Source: Octopus vulgaris (lineage: Eukaryota). From it: a stretch of 64,000 bases of DNA. Positions 880-61,811 of the stretch are shown here, one piece after another. The stretch lies in contig OX597818.1 of NCBI GenBank assembly GCA_951406725.2, forward strand, positions 125,922,001-125,986,000, written 5' to 3'. The position numbers and the translations under genes were made by a program. Numbering within the stretch: the stretch's first letter is position 1; each line of letters begins with the position of its first letter. The notes beneath the pieces are model-generated. The model saw only the letters and a program-made list of their open reading frames with translations, made no database searches and was not told where the DNA came from.

Positions 880-2074
880 CAAATCGACGCTACGATCGTT
901 TCCGTAAACGAACGATTTTTTAAAAATCTCATATCTCTTACAATGTTATGTAATACCATCAATATATAGAAATATGCAATAATATTTTTTATTGTTAGAT
1001 CACTTCTTCAGGCATCTTCATTTGAAAAACATGATCAAGGAAAGAAACAAAAAAGAAAAACAAGGAGAGAGATAATAAGGGAAAGTATACCAGTTAGTGG
1101 TCAGTCAAGATAATTTGAAAGTAGAAATCGGGAGATGAGGGTGATAAAGAAAGGTATCAGAGTGTAAAAAGATAGAAGGAATACCGGTCTGATAGAGAGA
1201 GGGGTATAAAAATGTAGTTTTCTTTGCATTGTGGGCATGTGATGCTGTAGATATTTGTGTAGAGACTAGTTACGTCAAAGCTTACTAGTACTGTCTCTTT
1301 ATCTGCCTGTTCTGGGATAGGATTTAAGAAGTCCATGTCATCTCTGATGAAACTGGGAACTAATCTACATAAAGGTTTTTCAAATTATGTCCAACAAGTT
1401 GCTTATTCTTTGGGTGCTGGATGCTGGTCCTGCAACAATCAGATGCAATTTGAGATCAGTTGGTTAGGGAATCTTTATATATGGAGTATGGAGATCTTTT
1501 AAGTTGTTGCTGATCTGTTTGGATTTATGGATTTCAGGAAGGCCATAAAAATTACTTGTTTCCACTTCAAAATGGTTAGGTAATTCAATTCCTTTTTAGT
1601 TAACTCATCCTTGAATTTGTTGATAAATTTGCCAGTTTTGCTCCTAGTTCGATTATCAGCATTGCTATCTAATCTTCTGTAGAATTGCTGGTCACTGAAT
1701 TGTTCTAAGACCATTTCCCTGTAATGGGTCTTCTCCATTATTACAATGGCTCCTCCTTTGTCAGCTTCTTTAATGATTATAGATGAATCTTGAAGACATT
1801 CTAATGATTTTTTCCCCTCATCTGTAATATTTTGTTTTACAGGGTTTGTTGGAATGTTTGAATTAGCAGACCTTTTCAGGTATATTATATATTCCACCAG
1901 GTGTTTGTTTCTATTTATCGGAGGTTTAAAATCTGTTTTATTCTGCAAAAACGGTGGATCATCGTTGCCATTGTTAGGAAAGAACTCCCGTGGGCGAAGT
2001 CTTCTGTAGAATTCTTCAGTATCTGTTATAAAGTCTGTTGTGCTGGATTTAGGAGTTGGTGTGAATTTTAGACC

Positions 2075-6250: not shown

Positions 6251-6311
6251 TACATTATTTATATATGTGTGTGTGTGTGTGTAGTTGTTGAAGTGGTGTA
6301 CAGATATTGTA

Positions 6312-6469
6312 TATTAAGAAGAACGTGGCAGTCAGAATTTTGGACAATCTCTTATTAGCGCTTTCGTCCGGACAATCGAACTTTTCAAGATAGTTTGAAG
6401 AGTTGGCTGAACGAACGAAAGCGCTAATAATTATTCAAAATTCTGACTGTCCCCTTCTTCTTCTTAATA
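6312..6469. mobile_element. Fold-back element with two divergent degenerate HHRs
   Basis: Arm pairs TATTAAGAAGAA/TTCTTCTTAATA, CAGTCAGAATTTTG/CAAAATTCTGACTG, TTATTAGCGCTTTCGT/ACGAAAGCGCTAATAA. Cores TTGAAGA (plus) and TTGAAAA (minus), each followed by GAAAGCGCTA. Confidence 0.75.
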
Positions 6470-6480
6470 CATATATATGT

Positions 6481-6570
<90 letters not shown>

Positions 6571-6890: not shown

Positions 6891-6914
6891 ATATATATAT
6901 ATATTTATATATTT

Positions 6915-7116
6915 ATAAAGTTAATCCAAACAAGAAACACAAAAAACACAACAACGCGAGGACGTGGAACAAACATAGTATTATTGGACGCTCAGGAAAG
7001 AAGGAAAGAAGGAGGGTGTATCGTTTTGAGCGGAGCTCTTTGTCGGAAACATAGGAGAAGGAAAGATCCAGAGTAGGGGAGACAGATGAAAAAAATCGCC
7101 AACGGTACACACGAGG

Positions 7117-7120
<4 letters not shown>
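6915..7120 (-). mobile_element. ~205 bp (TA)n-embedded element with decayed minimal HHR
   Basis: Reverse complement of 60874-61080; HHR remnant at 7016-7050. Confidence 0.8.
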
Positions 7121-7159
<39 letters not shown>

Positions 7160-7195
7160 TGCATATACATATACATACGTACATATATATATAAA

Positions 7196-13756: not shown

Positions 13757-16728
13757 GATTGATTGATTGATTGATTGATTCCAGTTCCAGCCTGTGAGCT
13801 GTGGCCATGCTGGGGCACCGCCATTTGGTGTTGCTACTTGGTTTTACTTCATGGGGGCTTTCTAGCAACTGCTATTTGGTGCATGAGAGAGTTCGATGCA
13901 GCTGCCCTCATCTGCCCCTCCTGCCGTGAAGTTGGTTCATCTGGGACACCAGACAGGAAGAGATCCAGCTTCATTTTAAAGACTTCTGTATCCACCCCAT
14001 GCAGGTCTCTCAGGTTCTTCGGGAGGATATTGAAGAGCTGTGGGCCTCGGAAGCCCAGGCTATCACAGAATCTTGTCCTACATCTTGATGGCAGGTTTGG
14101 AGTCCTAGGCACCACGCAGTGGCGCCCAGTTCTGGCATTTGTGTAACTCTCGATGCCAAAGTTCAGGACACTTCCCTCCAGGATCTTCCAGATGTATATT
14201 ATGGCATATCTTTCCCGCCTACGCTCCAGGGAGTATAATTTTAATCTCTTGAGTCTTTCCCAGTAGCTTACATTCTGCATAGAGGCTATCTTCTTTGTGT
14301 AGCTTCGTTGGATCGCCTCAAGTTCTGTGATCAACTTGACACTGGATGGTGACCATAGCTGAGAGCAATAGTCAAAGTGGCTTAGGACAAGTGTCTTCCA
14401 GAGGACCATCATGGTTTCTTGTTCTCTTGTTCTAAAGGTTCTAAGAATCCAGCCAGCCAGCCGTCTACATTTCACTGTCAGTTTAGCAACATGTACATGA
14501 AAGGTCGCGTCATCACTCATGTGAATACCCAGGTCACGCACTGATTGTGCCTCTGGGATTGCAATCCCTCCGGGTCCAGTGTATTCATTGGGTATTGCAT
14601 TCAGTTTTGCATGCTGATAGTATAAAGCTTGAAACTTTCCAGCATTGAACTGCATGCTATTCTTTTCAGCCCACTTGTATATTTCGTCCAGCTCACATTG
14701 CAGGTTTTTAGTGTCCTCAGGGTTCTGTATTGCCTGTGAAACTTTTGTATCATCTGCATAACTTGTGATCGTGGATCTCTGCGTGGCTGAGGGCATGTCT
14801 GAGAGGGCCATTATGAACAGTAGTGGTCCCAAAACAGTGCCCTGTGGAACACCACTCATTATTTGCGTGTTAATGGAAGTGGCCCCATTGGCTACTACCA
14901 CCTGACTTCTATTCTTCAGAAAGTCGTGAAGCCATTCTCCTAGTTTTCCAACTATGCCAAGATCACGCAACCTGTGACATATCATTCCGTGATCGACTTT
15001 ATCGAAGGCCTTTGCGAAGTCGAGATATATGACTTCCACATTTGAGTGGTTGAGCAGTTGTTTCAGCACCCAGTCATAGTGCTGCAGGAGCTGAGTTAAG
15101 CAGCTTCTTCCTGGTCGGAAACCATGTTGGGTGTCAGGCAGCAAGTCATTTTCTTCAAGGAAGGTGATTAGTTTCCTTCTGACTATTCGTTCCATGACCT
15201 TGCTGATGTGTGAGGTCAGAGAGATAGGTCTGTAGTTCTTTGCCTCCGCTCTGCTACCTCCTTTATGAATAGGGCATATTTTACCTTCCTTCAGTCCCCT
15301 TGGAAGTTTGCCAGCTGCAAGGAAGCTCTGAAAGAGGGACTGCAGTGGTCTTGCTAAGACTCTCTTACATACTTTTAGGAGGATTGCCGGGAATCCATCG
15401 GGGCCAGTAGCTGAGTCTATTTTCATTTCATCTATAGCCTTTATTACATCGTCTTCCTTTATCTCGATGTAACTTATCGTCGCCGCCTCTGATTCTATAT
15501 CTGCAGTGGTAAAGAAGTCAGTTGGATTGCTGATTTGGAAATGCCCAAGGGGTGGAGTGAAAACACTCTTGAATTGTTCATTCAGTATTTCACTTACCCT
15601 CATTGGTTTTCCTGTGAGTGTGCCATCCTTTTCAAGGAGTGGCCCTATCCTACAGTGCACTGTAGCCGTTTCTTTGGCATACCTGTAGAAAGCTCTGGGG
15701 TTAGTTTTTATGTTGTCTATAGCCCAGGCTTCTTTGTCTGCTCTTTCCTTCTCATGGGAAAGTTGCAGACAATTTTCAATTTCCAACAGTTTTATTTTCA
15801 GGCGGGACTTTTCACTACTTTCAATTTGTTTGTTTAGGCGATTTGAAATTTTTGTACGCCGTCTCATTAAAATTTTCCTCTCTCTGGGGATTTTGTTCTT
15901 GTGTACAGTGGCCTTTCTCTCTGGGACACATTTGTAGCATATGGCTTGCATTACAGACATGAATTGTTGAAGTATCATGTCGATGTCCGGCGAGGAGAGA
16001 CATTCAGGCCAGTTTTGTTTGAGGATCTCTTTCTCAATTTGTTTCCAGTTTGCCTTATTGAAGTTCAAGCTGGAAAGATTCTGAGGGTTTCTTGTAGGCT
16101 GCATGTCCGTGCTCTCTTTTGGCCCGTACATGGTCAGCTCTACCATGTTGTGATCCGAGAGTAGTGTCGGTGTCACTTTCACATTATGGATGAGATCCAT
16201 ATTATTTGTGAAGCAGAGATCCAGTGTGTTACCTGCTCTGGTTGGTTGCAGTATTACTTGCTCCATGTACAGGGTGTTGGTGAGGTTCAGGAGGGACCTC
16301 GCCTGTCCACGTTCACATCTTGTCATTCCTGGGAGAGAAAGGCCCTCGGGCCATCTGACATTCGGTAGATTGAAGTCTCCCATGAGAAGTACACTTATGT
16401 GTTGTTCTAATGTGGTTAGAACTTCTTCTATTTTTAAAAGGCAGTCCTCGAACTTGCCCATATGACTTGGGGCATCTGGAGGGCGATATGTAGCACACAC
16501 AACTACATAAAGTTGCCTTATGTGTACAATTAGTGTGTCACACACCGAGTTTGAGTATGACAAAAGGACCTGGGGTGTGAGGTCCCCACGGATGTACATA
16601 GCAACTCCTCCATGACTCCTTTCTTTCCTGTCGGTCCGTAGTACAACATACTGTGGTATGTGTAATTCCGCATCTGCTATGTCCGGTTTCAGATGCGTTT
16701 CTGTGAGTGCTATGCATAAGGCTTGATT
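13757..16728 (-). mobile_element. CR1-group LINE, 5'-truncated, young, embedded in (TA)n
   Basis: Intact ORF2 frame, short 3' UTR, (ATCA)n tail at 13757-13780, TA tracts on both sides. Confidence 0.95.
13849..16728 (-). CDS. LINE ORF2: APE endonuclease plus reverse transcriptase (no native start; frame stays open upstream of the ATG at 16599)
   Basis: EN motifs [31 protein letters not shown] motifs [41 protein letters not shown]-terminal LYSLERRR. Confidence 0.95.
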
Positions 16729-16749
16729 GCATGTATATATGTATATATG

Positions 16750-16781
<32 letters not shown>

Positions 16782-16809
16782 AATATATATATGTATATAT
16801 ATGTATATA

Positions 16810-16887
<78 letters not shown>

Positions 16888-16899
16888 AATTAAAAGAAT

Positions 16900-17340
16900 G
16901 AGACAAAAAATCCGAGGCTGTGAATAGTTTTCAGAACATTTATAAAGAGAAAGTCTTACAGATGTTTCCGGGATATTTTATATATCCCTTCATCAAAGGC
17001 GGTGCGAGAAAATGTTTAAGTAATAGTTATTATAGAGAAGATATGAAATACAGAGTGAAGTGGAGGAATGAAAACAGACGTGAGATACGTAAGGATATTG
17101 TATTAGCAGTTTTATTATTTAAGCAGAATGGTGAATATATAATTTTCCTGTACCTTGTGTGTAAGTTCCAAACTTATACATACACCATTCTGCTTAAATA
17201 ATGGAACCTCAAATACAATATCCTTATGTGCCTCACATCTATTTTTTTTCCTCCACTTCACTCTGTATTTCATGTCTTCTCTATAATAACTATTAAACAT
17301 TTTCTCGCACCGTCTCTGAAGAAGGGATATATAAAAAATA
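16900..17340. mobile_element. Fold-back element (~370 bp palindrome) with divergent HHRs
   Basis: 16973-17135 is the reverse complement of ~17178-17338; complete HHR on the left arm, truncated HHR (GTCT-CTGAAGA-AGGGATAT) at 17312-17335. Confidence 0.9.
16953..17000 (-). ncRNA. Minimal type I hammerhead (C3-to-U decayed copy)
   Basis: GCCT-TTGATGA-A-GGGATAT-ATAAA-ATATCCC-G-GAAAC-ATCT-GTA-AGAC. Confidence 0.75.
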
Positions 17341-18215: not shown

Positions 18216-18883
18216 AAGAAAGAGAGATACACACATATATGCATATACGCTTACGTGCATGCATTTATACATACATAGAAATATGTACATGTGAACTTTG
18301 TGATTCCGCACATTTTTGTCTACCTAATTCACTCGCAATACACAATTATATTTTTATTCTTTTATCCTCTCATGCTTTACTATTCGGTCGTCGACGACTT
18401 TACCTTTTATTTTTTCAGATTCGATAAAATAAGAAACATTTTAGCACTGAGGTCGATGTAATCGATTTACCAGTCACCTAAAACTGCTGGCCTTGTGCCA
18501 AACTTTGAAATCATTCTTTCATCCGTCATCATCTCCAGAATAATGCCGTGATGCTGGAGTAAAGCCGATGCAATTGGTAATTATTTTAGGACAACTGTTT
18601 TTGTAGTTAATTTGTTGAATAAACGTCTTTGATGCTGCTTTCCTCAGTTAACGTTTTCACCGCCACAGTGAAACATCTGCATCGCATATCGTAGGGTATC
18701 CAGTCTTTTTTTGAATACATATATATATATATGTGTGTGTGTAAAATTAATAGAGGTCGCAAATGTGACAGAGGGTACTGACTTAGCAACTCTTTTGCTA
18801 AAAATGAGAGTTAAAACAACTCCAACGCCACAAAGCACTGAACTTAATGACTGACAAAGTGACGTTAATTCCCTACGTACATG

Positions 18884-18937
18884 GTCGGATCGTGATTTCG
18901 GATTTTGATGCAAACTATCTAAATCCTCATCAGCGAC
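18884..18937 (-). ncRNA. Minimal type I hammerhead, intact core
   Basis: GTCG-CTGATGA-GGATTT..AAATCC-GAAAT-CACG-ATC-CGAC. Confidence 0.85.
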
Positions 18938-19353
18938 TCTTTATACCTAAGATTAAACTCAACTACCGCTGTCAGTCTTATAAAGAAAACCGTTGAAAAC
19001 GTGTGCTGACTTTCAGAACGGTAAACGTGTAAACAACAAATTAAAAATGGTGGCTTATTAGCAATTAGAACCTAAAAGCAATATTAATAGAGGTCACACA
19101 AATGATGGAAGGTACTGACTAGCAAATCTTTTGCTAAAAATAAGAGTTAAAACACCTCCAAACCACAAAAGCAGTGAACTCAGAGGTGCTAGTCTGTGCC
19201 CACTGTTACTTTCCTGGCCTCTGTTAATATTGCTTTTAGGTTCTAATTGCTAATAAGCCAACTTTTTAATTTTTTGTTTACACTTTTACCGTTTTGAAAA
19301 TCAGCATATGTTTTCAACGGTAGAGATAGTTGTGTTTTACCGTAGGCGTTAAA

Positions 19354-19402
19354 AGTCACTGATGAGGATTAAGATGGTAAAATCCGAAGACGCGATCCGA
19401 CT
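19354..19402 (+). ncRNA. Minimal type I hammerhead, decayed
   Basis: AGTCA-CTGATGA-GGATT..AATCC-GAAG-ACGCG-ATC-CGACT. Confidence 0.7.
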
Positions 19403-19588
19403 ACGTACGCTAGGGGTGTTACTTACCTTTGACAGTCATTAAGTTCATTACTTTTGTGGATCTGCAGTTGCTTTAACACTTATTTTTAGCAAAACGAGGT
19501 GGTGGTCGGTACCCACTGTCACTTTTGTTACAACTACTAATTTTCCCTGTAGATTCTAATTGCTAATAATCCACCCATTTCATATATA

Positions 19589-31850: not shown

Positions 31851-32135
31851 ATATGGATATTGATGTATACATACATATATATAAATATGCATTCACATAC
31901 GTTGACAAGCAATCACGCGCACGCATATGCATATACAGTAGTCCAGAAACCCAGATAGATTTTATCGCAGAACACGAGATGTGAGAACATATATCCTATG
32001 TAAACAAATGCCATATTAGGGCGGGGTACTATAATACGCATAGGTTATATTAATAAACACTTTGCAGTCAGAGACTCATTTCATATAGATATATATATAT
32101 ATATATATATGAAATGAGTCTATGGCTGCAAAGTG

Positions 32136-32180
<45 letters not shown>

Positions 32181-33850: not shown

Positions 33851-33948
33851 ACATAGACATATGCACACTCATATATATATATATATATATATACGTGACA
33901 TCGGCGTCGTTATTGACTACGTTTTCACTTGGCTTGACGAGCACACTC

Positions 33949-34027
<79 letters not shown>

Positions 34028-34029
<2 letters not shown>

Positions 34030-34260
34030 GAGTGTGCTCATGAAGCCAAGTGAAATCGTATTCATGACCGATGCCGGTGTTACGTAACTGGTCCCCCGTG
34101 CCGGTGGCACGTAAAGAGCATCTATTGCACTCTTTGAGTGATTGGCGTTAGGAAGGGCATCCAACCGTAGAAACCATGCCAAAAACAGACTGGGACTTGA
34201 ACCTGCTCTCTGGCTTACCACTTCCAATCAAACCGTCTAATTCATGCCAGCATGGAAAGA
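34028..34260 (+). mobile_element. SINE-like body with RTE-UTR-like motif
   Basis: CGTGCCGGTGGCACG hairpin; GGCGTTAGGAAGGGCATCC; CATGCCAGCATGG (family link recalled, not searched). Confidence 0.55.
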
Positions 34261-51330: not shown

Positions 51331-51808
51331 TACGTAAATGTATACCTGGAAGAATGTTCCCTATACACAATTTAAACTTATTCTCAGTGTATATACGATA
51401 ACATCACTTTGTTTATCAATGTTTAAAAGCTTTCAGCCCAGTATAGACAGAGTGATCTCCCTAACAACAGAATGTCTTTTTGTTATTTCACGAACAAAAA
51501 TATTCCAAACGTCACGTCTATTTTGTAAATGTTGTTTCCTAAAATTAACACTGTTATCACAAGATTGTATATATGCATGTACGTGTGCGTATACACGCGT
51601 GTGTACGCGTGTGTATATATGTGTATATGTGTATATGTATACATATATGTATATATATATATATATATTAAAAGGGAAAATATATATATATATGTTTATA
51701 TATATATACTAAAAGGGAGATCTCAGTAAAAACACAGCACTTGAAAGGCAAACACAGACAGGTAAGAAAGAATGAGATGACGGCAATCTATCATACAATT
51801 TTAAGTTA

Positions 51809-51899
51809 CCTACGGACGTACGTTTCGAAATCAAGTTTTAGGAAACATAAAAATTAGAAAATTCTACCTTACCCAAACTTCTTTTCTCGTCGGCGTAGG
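51809..51899 (-). ncRNA. Type I hammerhead with CCGACGA core variant
   Basis: CCTACG-CCGACGA-GAAA..TTTC-GAAAC-GTAC-GTC-CGTAGG. Confidence 0.8.
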
Positions 51900-51983
51900 A
51901 TACTACAATTATGAATAATTGTATATTAAATTTTGAGATACTATCTCAAAATTTAATATACAATTATTCATAATTGAAGTTAT

Positions 51984-52072
51984 CCTACGCCGACGAGAAA
52001 AGAAGTTTGTAAGGTAGAATTTTCTAATTATGCTTTCCTAAAACTTGATTTCGAAACGTAGCCGTCCGTAGG
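51984..52072 (+). ncRNA. Type I hammerhead with CCGACGA core variant
   Basis: CCTACG-CCGACGA-GAAA..TTTC-GAAAC-GTAGCC-GTC-CGTAGG. Confidence 0.8.
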
Positions 52073-52132
52073 TAACTTAAAATTGTATGATATATATATA
52101 TATATATATATTTCACCCTTTATTGTTACTGA

Positions 52133-53770: not shown

Positions 53771-53874
53771 AATATGTCTACACTAAATATATCTATTTCC
53801 AAGCCTTTAAGCGTTATTCCTATTCACCTATCACTCTATATCTCTCCACTATTATTTTCCTGCTAATTTCTGTC

Positions 53875-53962
53875 TTTCCCTGATGAGAAGATTGCATTGT
53901 TTTACACCATTTTATTCCTTCTGGAATAATACCAATATATTTTTCGAAACATATGTCGGAAA
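53875..53962 (+). ncRNA. Type I hammerhead, intact core
   Basis: TTTCC-CTGATGA-GAAGAT..ATTTTTC-GAAAC-ATAT-GTC-GGAAA; preceded by a pyrimidine-rich tract, followed by AATAAA and (TA)n. Confidence 0.88.
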
Positions 53963-53994
53963 TAAAATGATTTGAATAACACCTGCGTTTAACC

Positions 53995-54056
<62 letters not shown>

Positions 54057-54507: not shown

Positions 54508-54575
<68 letters not shown>

Positions 54576-54579
<4 letters not shown>

Positions 54580-55320
54580 GATATAGGATAAAATTTTTTT
54601 CGGGAAAAAAATTTTATCAATGGCCAACATATAAAAAAATGCCTTTAAGCTAAGATTTATACATAATTTACAAGATAAGGGCAGAAGAAAAAATTCTAAT
54701 GCCAAATATGCCGAAACAAAAAATTGTTGGTAACCATTATAATTTAGGCGTCTCGAAGCAAACCGATAGAAATTTCTAAAAAATTCGTTATTACCGTATT
54801 GGTCCAATTTCGGGGTTAATTCATAAGAAATTTTCCCCTCTTCAGCGGCAAATACGCGAGACATAAATGAAATACTTACTCATACCCATGGAAAAAGCAA
54901 GCACTAAGTCCTGAGCAGACTTAAGTACCCCAATTATATCCAAAATAGAAAAATCATCGGCGCACCTCGAGACACGTGCGATTCGAACTAGAAACTTTCA
55001 CAGAGTGATAGAATCCGGAAGTGAATACTAATCTATTTATAATTGATATAGGATAAAATTTTTTTCGGGGAAAAAACGAATTTTTTAGAGATTTCTATCG
55101 GCTTGCTTCGAGACGCATAAATTATAATGGTTATCAACAATTTTTTGTTTCGGCATATTTGGCATTAGAATTTTTCTTCTGCCCTTATCTTGTAAATTAT
55201 GTATAAATTTTACCTTGAAAGGCATTTTTTGATATGCTGGCCATTGACAAAATTTATTTCGGGAAAATTTTTTATCCTATATCAATTATAAATAGATTAG
55301 TGTTTACTTCCGGATTCTAT
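54576..55320. mobile_element. Retrozyme-like element: 465 nt terminally redundant monomer (-) plus inverted partial copy (+)
   Basis: AATTGATATAGGATAAAATTTTTT at 54576 and 55041; 55075-55320 is the reverse complement of 54576-54790 continuing into 55009-55040. Confidence 0.9.
54791..54851 (-). ncRNA. Type I hammerhead, intact core
   Basis: TTGCCG-CTGAAGA-GGGG..CCCC-GAAA-TTGG-A-CCAAT-A-CGGTAA. Confidence 0.9.
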
Positions 55321-60283: not shown

Positions 60284-60873
60284 CATATATGTGGGGGAGC
60301 ACGTGTGTTTGTGCGTGCATTCTGCGTCGCGCGCATATGCACATGCAAGGGTGTAGCATGCATGCAGTTACTAATATACTTCCATAATCGTACATTATAT
60401 CTAACAAGCAGGAGTCTTTGAAGAGTTCCGATCAGGAAAATTATTACAACTACTTGCTATTCCACGCTTCCGCGTAATGTGTGTACACCGGCACTTTAAT
60501 CTAAGACAGCTTCAAGTGCGTATATTAATTAATAATGTGTGTGTGTGTGCGTGTATGTGTGTGTGTGTGTAATTTTTGGGTGTATTGCCAATGCACATTA
60601 CGTTACTATAGTTATTAGGCCTACATATATTATGCTACCGCAAACTCCCATACTCTTATATTATACACATAAGGAAGTATAGCATTGCGATATATCAAAC
60701 GTTTCGAACACTTAAACAAATGTTTTAAAATCAATAGCTGTTAATTTATGATTGTTTACAGGCTGAGCCACTGTTGGAAATCTCTTGGGTTTAAAGTATC
60801 AGCACAAGTCTTGTATACCTTATACTTACATGTATGCATGTATACATACATACGTACATACATATTACATATA

Positions 60874-61080
60874 ATGTGACCTCGTGTGTACCGTTGGCGA
60901 TTTTTGTTCCTCTGTCTTCCCTTCTCTGGATCTTTCCTTCTCCTATGTTTCCGACGTAGAGCTCCGCTCGAAACGTTAAACCCTCCTTCCCTTCTTTCCT
61001 GAGCGTCCAATAATTCTATATTTGTTCCACGTCCTCGCGTTGTTGTGCTTTTTTGTGTTTTCTTGTTTGGATTAACTATA
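60874..61080 (+). mobile_element. ~205 bp element with minimal HHR variant
   Basis: GTTT-CCGACGTA-GAGC-TCC-GCTC-GAAACGTT-AAAC at 60947-60981; second copy at 6915-7120. Confidence 0.8.
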
Positions 61081-61811
61081 TATACATGTGTGTGTGTGTG
61101 CGTATGAATATATGTATATATACACGTACATATAAACACGATTGAATTTATAAACGTAACGGAAACATTATTCGATGCATGATGTGAAATGTAGTTATGT
61201 ATTTTTGAAGGAGGAGCTTCGTTGCTGCATTACTCCCCTTCAAACTTAAGATCAAGATAATTACACACACACATACACACACACACACTCATACACACAC
61301 ACACACACACACTTCAGCATACACACATTCAAACATACACAGAATCAAACATACACAGACTCAAGCATATACGGACTCAGGCATACACACACACACACAT
61401 ATATATATATATGTATGCACGTGTGTACTCATGCGCGTACGTATATTTGAGCAAGAGTTTATATATTTCAATTCTTTATATATGTATTTTTTTCTGATAT
61501 TATCCAAGGCAATAAAACACATACACATATCTATAAAATGTGGATGAAATGTCCTGAAATTCCATATCGAATGTTCAAGAAAGAAAAACCAAAAATTGAA
61601 TGTTAAAACCAAACATAATATTTTAACGCCTGAGCGGCTTTCTTAAGTTCTTTTATAATTTCTCTTCATCAATGGAATTCCAGATTTCCAGATATCACCG
61701 ACATTTTTTTTTCAGTTTAAAATTTGTTTTTATGTTACTTTATAGGAAATCGGATGCTCATCCCGACATTTGCACACACTTATTTCGTTTGGTTTTGTAC
61801 GTGTGTATGCT

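What the first reader, a model, noticed from the sequence alone, without database searches (positions are those of the whole stretch)
51789..52092. Best-preserved fold-back: twin hammerheads with non-canonical CCGACGA core
Seen: 1-nt spacer, perfect 6 bp stem I (CCTACG/CGTAGG), GUC sites, long stem II. Both arms have C at the normally conserved U4 position, as does the unrelated 60874 family, so it may be a natural core variant rather than decay (inference). As DNA it is a strong cruciform candidate.
Basis: partly seen in the sequence, partly recalled or inferred. Interest (0 to 1): 0.75.

Follow-up and report, generated by a model that had tools for sequence, protein, structure and literature searches.

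The report
Penelope-type fold-back with U4C hammerhead subfamily
This is one copy of an abundant animal repeat, likely the end of a Penelope-like retrotransposon that likely copied itself backwards on insertion; its odd hammerhead-ribozyme letter (C in place of U4) is shared by a minority of related copies, and whether that version still cuts RNA is untested.

Summary
The fold-back is there as described: arms match at 146 of 147 aligned bases plus 5 small gaps, each with a type I hammerhead pattern pointing outward. Public contigs show a high-copy family covering 51710-51943; family contigs run on past the centre into non-mirror sequence, so the fold-back belongs to this copy only. That family sequence holds a 7-bp inverted repeat at the fold point, which fits self-priming, a described habit of Penelope-like elements. 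Yet C4 is not single-copy decay: it makes up 35%, 8% and 5%, and 3 of 5 contigs in one RNA(?) run read CCGAUGA. C7 is nearly private (at most 0.02% in organism A) yet sits in both arms, so the arms are one template, not two witnesses. The two ribozymes lie on opposite strands; a read-through RNA is predicted to fold as one long hairpin instead. U4C is a known viroid variant. Verdict: known architecture with a modest, untested core variant.

The parts
51710..51943 (-). Longer copy of the repeat's 3' end (family-covered stretch; true 3' end may lie further left)
   Evidence: 634, 410, 272 and 43 contigs of four runs lay on it; depth falls to about zero after 51943
51809..51899 (-). Left type I hammerhead pattern: 6-bp stem I, core CCGACGA (51893-51887), 60-nt stem II region, palindromic stem/loop III, GUC site ending 51815
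51710..51788 (-). 3' extension present on the left copy only (tail-like, at least 79 nt)
   Evidence: covered by family contigs in all four runs; no mirror on the right
51942..52092 (+). Inverted, shorter copy (head-to-head); carries 4 of the 5 gap differences relative to the family
51984..52072 (+). Right type I hammerhead pattern: core CCGACGA 51990-51996, 56-nt stem II region, loop III palindrome broken by a 2-nt insertion, GUC site ending 52066
51906..51976 (.). Perfect 35-bp palindrome around C51941; junction with a 2-nt overlap (51942-51943) of the two copies; its inner 7 bp match an inverted repeat already present in the family sequence
   Evidence: (loose ends behind 51943)
52093..52111 (.). 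(TA)n flank on the right; no target-site duplication can be read
51640..51709 (.). TA-rich microsatellite flank on the left

Best explanation
The fold-back is a single copy of a high-copy repeat end carrying a type I hammerhead pattern, likely the pseudo-LTR end of a Penelope-like element, and it likely arose when the newly made antisense strand folded onto a 7-bp inverted repeat in the family sequence and primed a copy of itself. Shown: family membership, the one-sided 3' extension, the non-mirror continuation of family copies past 51943, the 7-bp repeat, the shared private C7, and C4 in a minority subfamily. Inferred: insertion into (TA)n by a Penelope RT/GIY-YIG protein supplied in trans; first-strand synthesis from the 3' end to just past 51943; snap-back; second strand copied back to 51789; loss of about 10 nt at the hairpin tip. 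The U4C core most likely spread as a tolerated, slower ribozyme inside a subfamily whose copying does not strictly need cleavage; this copy is probably a dead insertion, since its two ribozymes are on opposite strands and a read-through RNA is predicted to form a 147-bp hairpin.
For: Family contigs cover 51710-51943 and continue behind 51943 with non-mirror letters in 8, 6, 4 and 2 contigs of the four runs; no joint was listed. In three of the four loose-end consensuses those letters include ATCTCAA, the reverse complement of 51933-51939 and the first 7 nt of the right arm (chance about 0.003 within 30 nt). Position 7 is C in both arms but at most 18.6 of 95,901 depth in X1, 0.37% in X4, 0.12% in X19, 0 in X5. 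Position 4: U in 64.9%, 92.0%, 95.1%, 51.3%; the rest is the window's C or letters under 4%. Depth arithmetic in X5 gives three contigs with C4+U7, one with U4+A7, one with U4+U7. Stem I end pair changes C-G to U-A on both sides (X4 75%/71%, X19 86%/83%, one X5 contig holds both). Head-to-head inverted pLTRs with a palindrome at the junction and a tail on one side are described and read as self-priming on an antisense strand (PMC3846280; PMC8557442). Palindromic helix III and dimer cleavage are typical of metazoan PLE hammerheads (PMC4209133); the left loop III self-pairs at -11.2 kcal/mol, the right at -3.1. Ribozyme-dead mutants did not block insertion in vitro for an anole PLE (PMC11167929). 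Read-through RNA: hairpin -208 vs hammerhead-constrained -98 kcal/mol. A PLE RT remnant lies at 1178-2074 and other hammerhead-bearing inverted ends lie in the window.
Against: No RT or GIY-YIG ORF was linked to this family: none is in the element, and the upstream family sequence was seen for 30 nt only. The one-sided extension is at least 79 nt, longer than the 30-40 bp tail described. No laid contig crosses the centre cleanly, so the palindrome is not independently confirmed. Contig depth is not a copy number, and laying at 80% likeness favours copies like the query. The two-sided stem changes are uneven in X1 (stem I 43% vs 11%; stem II 31% vs 2%). The other 13 core places show no variant, but 1.7 were expected and P(0)=0.17, so selection on the core is not shown. 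No cleavage data exist for any version.
Confidence: 0.7

Rival explanations
1. U4C is a selected, working core variant (a slow or protein-assisted ribozyme) that arose independently in two repeat families of this genome.
For: C4 depth in X1 is about 1,700 times that of the one low-depth contig left at position 7 (an upper bound); present in three organisms; 2 of 2 copies of the second family have C4; in X5 a C4 contig (depth 46.4) has one half, and an adjoining contig (46.5, 30-nt overlap) the other half, of an A-U to G-C change in stem II; U4C keeps a viroid infectious (PMC3088659).
Against: Most depth has U4; U4C considerably lowers activity in vitro (same paper); core conservation is not significant here (P=0.17); C4 and C7 each make the hammerhead fold less favourable in silico, 2.3 kcal/mol above the ensemble for CUGAAGA against 4.4 for CCGAUGA and 6.1 for CCGACGA; both second-family copies are broken elsewhere in the core.
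Confidence: 0.22
2. The inversion formed another way: two cDNAs primed from opposite target strands and joined at a 2-nt TA overlap, or a template switch during DNA replication or repair after insertion.
For: The two copies overlap by 2 nt at 51942-51943; an anole PLE protein nicks and extends both strands and starts at two sites (PMC11167929); snap-back needs a further loss of about 10 nt.
Against: The 7-bp inverted repeat at exactly this point is unexplained by two independent cDNAs; several other fold-backs in the window are also hammerhead-bearing ends, which general DNA repair would not single out.
Confidence: 0.2
3. The right arm is a sequencing or assembly artefact (a long read turning back on itself).
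For: No contig crosses the centre cleanly; 4 of 5 gap differences and the one substitution sit in the right arm and are not listed among family differences.
Against: The mirror stops after 151 nt and unique sequence resumes; older fold-backs in the window have arms only 72-83% alike, which an artefact would not give; the laid runs may lack this insertion, and the tool states that a hole proves nothing.
Confidence: 0.07
4. It is a MITE or foldback DNA transposon whose unit is the whole palindrome.
For: Short, non-coding, long inverted repeats, TA flanks.
Against: Family contigs do not turn at the centre but continue into other sequence in all four runs; depth right of 51943 is about zero; the ends are unequal by at least 79 nt.
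Confidence: 0.03

Closest known systems
Penelope-like element pLTRs with inverted 5'-truncated copy and one-sided tail (Adineta vaga Pen1-6, PMC3846280; overview in PMC8557442)
   Same: Head-to-head inversion, palindrome at the junction, extension on one side only, AT-rich or (TA)n target.
   Different: No ORF in this copy; extension at least 79 nt rather than 30-40; the autonomous partner was not found.
Minimal/dimeric type I hammerheads of metazoan PLEs (PMC4209133)
   Same: Type I topology, short palindromic helix III, G10.1-C11.1 pair, GUC site.
   Different: Stem II region of 56-60 nt (about 17-25 nt in the 44 rows seen in its Fig. S2); no extra base between positions 9 and 10.1; C at position 4, whereas 44 of 44 rows seen have U4 (that descriptor required it).
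Viroid hammerhead with U4C (Ambros and Flores 1998, as cited in PMC3088659)
   Same: The same core change in a natural ribozyme.
   Different: There a rare variant of an RNA replicon with measured activity; here a subfamily trait in animal genomic repeats, unmeasured.
Non-LTR retrozymes (PMC7229834; bioRxiv 10.64898/2026.07.22.740005)
   Same: Non-coding animal repeats with type I hammerheads, proposed PLE derivatives.
   Different: Retrozymes are head-to-tail tandems that put two ribozymes on one RNA; here the copies are head-to-head on opposite strands.

Membership tests
Type I hammerhead ribozyme | Three helices around the core in type I order | tested here: met
   two-sided change in stem I
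Type I hammerhead ribozyme | Conserved core CUGANGA / GAAA / NUH | tested here: not met
   This copy has C4; all other core letters are canonical. Most family depth meets the consensus
Type I hammerhead ribozyme | Match to an Rfam hammerhead model | tested here: not met
   the canonical long-stem-II motif at 53880 was missed too, so the test is insensitive here
Type I hammerhead ribozyme | Self-cleavage after C17 | not testable with these tools
   Only contigs, no raw reads, were offered
Penelope-like element | RT of the PLE clade with GIY-YIG endonuclease, in cis or as partner | tested here: inconclusive
   None in the element; an unlinked PLE RT remnant at 1178-2074; no genome held
Penelope-like element | Hammerhead near the 3' end (pLTR) | tested here: met
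   Cleavage site 26 nt and at least 105 nt from the two outer ends
Penelope-like element | Inverted 5'-truncated copy, palindromic junction, one-sided tail | tested here: met
   extension longer than the described 30-40 bp
Penelope-like element | Dispersed multi-copy family, AT-rich or microsatellite target | tested here: met
   hundreds of variant contigs per DNA run; TA flanks; dispersal itself not mapped
Non-LTR retrozyme | Head-to-tail tandem units, each with a hammerhead | tested here: not met
   No tandem copy in the window; no go-back joint listed. The family elsewhere could not be tested
MITE / foldback DNA transposon | Terminal inverted repeats shared by all copies | tested here: not met
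   Family contigs continue past the centre without mirroring

The most novel reading that the evidence does not exclude
Two unrelated Penelope-type families in this animal lineage independently fixed U4C in large subfamilies as a working, down-tuned or protein-rescued hammerhead; such CCGANGA ribozymes are invisible to the usual 'cuganga' descriptors, so a sizeable hidden class of genomic hammerheads has been missed.
Probability: 0.2. Interest if true: 0.55.

Novelty: new variant of a known kind. Interest (0 to 1): 0.3.

Why it matters
If the CCGAUGA subfamily is inactive yet amplified, it is natural evidence that Penelope-type elements spread without ribozyme cleavage, a question left open in the papers read (PMC8557442, PMC11167929). 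If active, the hammerhead core consensus used for genome searches is too narrow. The 7-bp repeat at the fold point also gives a countable test of the self-priming model for Penelope inversions. The individual fold-back is an ordinary insertion.

Tried and rejected
Rfam: no hammerhead hit. No whole genome held, so no genome-wide copy count. Metagenome scan with a 19-nt core pattern gave 22 loci; none extends beyond about 21-31 nt and none continues as the element: chance. The second-family pattern found 0 in viral and 0 in prokaryote contigs; a PLE protein alignment found no viral locus. Run search: no RNA holder listed on record; X5 is only guessed to be RNA, so expression is not claimed. I laid 4 of 24 listed runs, on 51710-51975 only. 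Lack of contig cover over the centre is not used as evidence of absence. A-to-I editing as the source of C4/C7 was considered: A>G is the commonest change in X5 (9 places) but most are also in DNA runs, and this copy's near-private changes go both ways (51776, 51889 against 51851), so it was dropped. No match of a family motif in the supplement of PMC8557442 (line breaks could hide one); the octopus Naiad end shown there looks different by eye. The LINE protein search gave no organism names; the host stays 'animal, probably mollusc' (best named PLE hits are oysters; octopus-like only by recall). Three look-ups of earlier scan findings returned nothing. Lunse et al. 2017 and Ambros and Flores 1998 are not held.

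Full report
Setting. The window is AT-rich animal DNA full of microsatellites, with a long LINE ORF (13849-16977) and a Penelope-type RT remnant (1178-2074 on the minus strand; 41 homologues, many with RT and GIY-YIG domains, best named ones from oysters). No whole genome is held. 'Octopus-like' is my recollection of the repeat landscape and comes from no call.

Observation. The fold-back is as described. Arms 51789-51940 and 51942-52092 match at 146 of 147 aligned bases with 5 gap events; 35 bp on each side of C51941 are perfect. Each arm carries a type I hammerhead pattern reading outward, with a 6-bp stem I, core CCGACGA, a 60- or 56-nt stem II region and a GUC site. My descriptor gives 6 relaxed hits in the window against 0.05 in 100 shuffles. 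Rfam models miss these motifs, and also the canonical one at 53880.

Family evidence. I laid contigs of 4 of 24 listed public runs (three coded organisms; one run guessed to be RNA) on 51710-51975 at 80% likeness; 634, 410, 272 and 43 contigs were laid. They cover 51710-51943, so the apparent left flank 51710-51788 belongs to the repeat and has no mirror on the right. Behind 51943, contigs of all four runs go on with non-mirror letters and no joint is listed: the family is not palindromic, this copy is. In the three DNA-like runs those letters contain ATCTCAA, the reverse complement of 51933-51939 and the start of the right arm (chance about 0.003); the two-contig consensus of X5 differs there. 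No contig crosses the centre cleanly; this neither confirms nor refutes the palindrome.

The core. By summed contig depth (not a copy number, and biased towards copies like the query) position 4 is U in 64.9% (X1), 92.0% (X4), 95.1% (X19) and 51.3% (X5); position 7 is U or A in 99.98%, 99.6%, 99.9% and 100%. Depth arithmetic phases X5: three contigs CCGAUGA, one CUGAAGA, one CUGAUGA. So C4 is a minority subfamily trait present in three organisms, while C7 is nearly private. Both arms share C7, so they descend from one template and are not two observations. The second family (60833-61082 and 6914-7165) has C4 in 2 of 2 copies, each damaged elsewhere in the core; I could not test it family-wide. 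Stem I shows a two-sided C-G to U-A change (X4 75/71%, X19 86/83%, but X1 43/11%), and stem II a possible A-U to G-C change linked to a C4 contig in X5 (but 31/2% in X1). The other 13 core places have no listed variant, against 1.7 expected from 30 variable places in 234 (P=0.17): selection is not shown.

Can this copy work? The two ribozymes are on opposite strands, so one RNA never holds both. A read-through RNA is predicted to form the long hairpin (-208 kcal/mol) rather than a hammerhead (-98). Alone, the left motif's hammerhead fold lies 6.1 kcal/mol above its ensemble, against 4.4 for CCGAUGA, 3.7 for CUGAUGA and 2.3 for CUGAAGA (secondary structure only). The left loop III can pair with a second molecule (-11.2 kcal/mol), the right barely (-3.1). 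As DNA, extruding the 35-bp arms costs about 10 kcal/mol without supercoiling; a cruciform is possible, not shown.

Mechanism. Inferred: a Penelope-type RT/endonuclease inserts the 3' end of the repeat at (TA)n; the antisense strand, made from about 51710 to just past 51943, folds on the 7-bp repeat and primes its own copy back to 51789; about 10 nt of loop are lost. This gives a head-to-head inversion, a palindromic junction, a one-sided extension and shared private letters. Rivals are two cDNAs joined at a TA overlap, later template switching, an assembly artefact, or a MITE (see rivals).

Literature seen. PMC3846280 (passages and Discussion) describes head-to-head inverted pLTRs with junction palindromes and reads them as self-priming. 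PMC8557442 (passages, supplement searches) gives the inverted copy, the 30-40 bp tail, (TA)n bias and the 'cuganga' descriptor, and notes that clades without canonical hammerheads still proliferate. PMC4209133 (main text parts 1-2 of 4; supplement file 2 part 2 of 3; file 1 not searchable) gives dimer-type PLE hammerheads, dual motifs on opposite strands, and U4 in 44 of 44 rows seen. PMC11167929 (parts 1-2 of 4): ribozyme mutants do not block insertion in vitro, and cleavage needs the protein. PMC3088659 (passages, section 8): U4C lowers activity in vitro but keeps a viroid infectious. PMC6765202, PMC7229834, PMC6962438: passages. bioRxiv 10.64898/2026.07.22.740005: part 1 of 5; its supplements were not seen. 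I found no report of a U4C subfamily in animal PLE hammerheads in searches (30 of 37 listed; 20 of 135 listed), 44, 45, 49 and 58, but Lunse et al. 2017, the paper most likely to hold such variants, was not available.

Verdict. Real, explained by a known Penelope-type structure. The one point beyond the known is that U4C is an amplified subfamily trait in one family and probably a second; whether it cuts is open. Novelty: new variant of a known kind; interest 0.3.

Noticed in passing
window 18743-19580: Older fold-back (arms 72% alike) with canonical CUGAUGA hammerhead cores pointing outward at 18933 (-) and 19359 (+), plus internal duplicated ends.
   Followed up: partly
window 54566-55320: Hammerhead pattern with CUGAAGA at 54845 (-) inside an element with a 231-bp inverted duplication and a 57-bp inverted tail.
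   Followed up: partly
window 53870-53995: Single canonical hammerhead pattern (CUGAUGA, 59-nt stem II region, palindromic loop III) ending at (TA)n: same build as the finding, other sequence; missed by Rfam.
   Followed up: partly
window 60833-61082 (+) and 6914-7165 (-): Second repeat family fitting the minimal PLE hammerhead layout, C4 in both copies, 89% alike, each with further core damage.
   Followed up: partly
window 16973-17339 and 6296-6484: Further fold-backs (83% and 76%); the first shows degenerate hammerhead-like cores by eye and abuts the 5' side of the LINE ORF.
   Followed up: no
window 13849-16977 (-): Stop-free LINE ORF with AP endonuclease and RT; closest homologue 88% identical over 962 aa, unnamed.
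   Followed up: partly
window 1178-2074 (-): Frameshifted Penelope-type RT remnant, about 52% identical to oyster proteins.
   Followed up: partly
window 51669-51701 and 52090-52122: The two flanks show a weak inverted likeness (85% over 33 nt, mostly TA plus a short purine-rich motif that also resembles 51710-51718); unexplained.
   Followed up: no
window 32046-32148 and 33892-34086: Short inverted repeats wrapped around (TA)n runs, without hammerhead cores.
   Followed up: no
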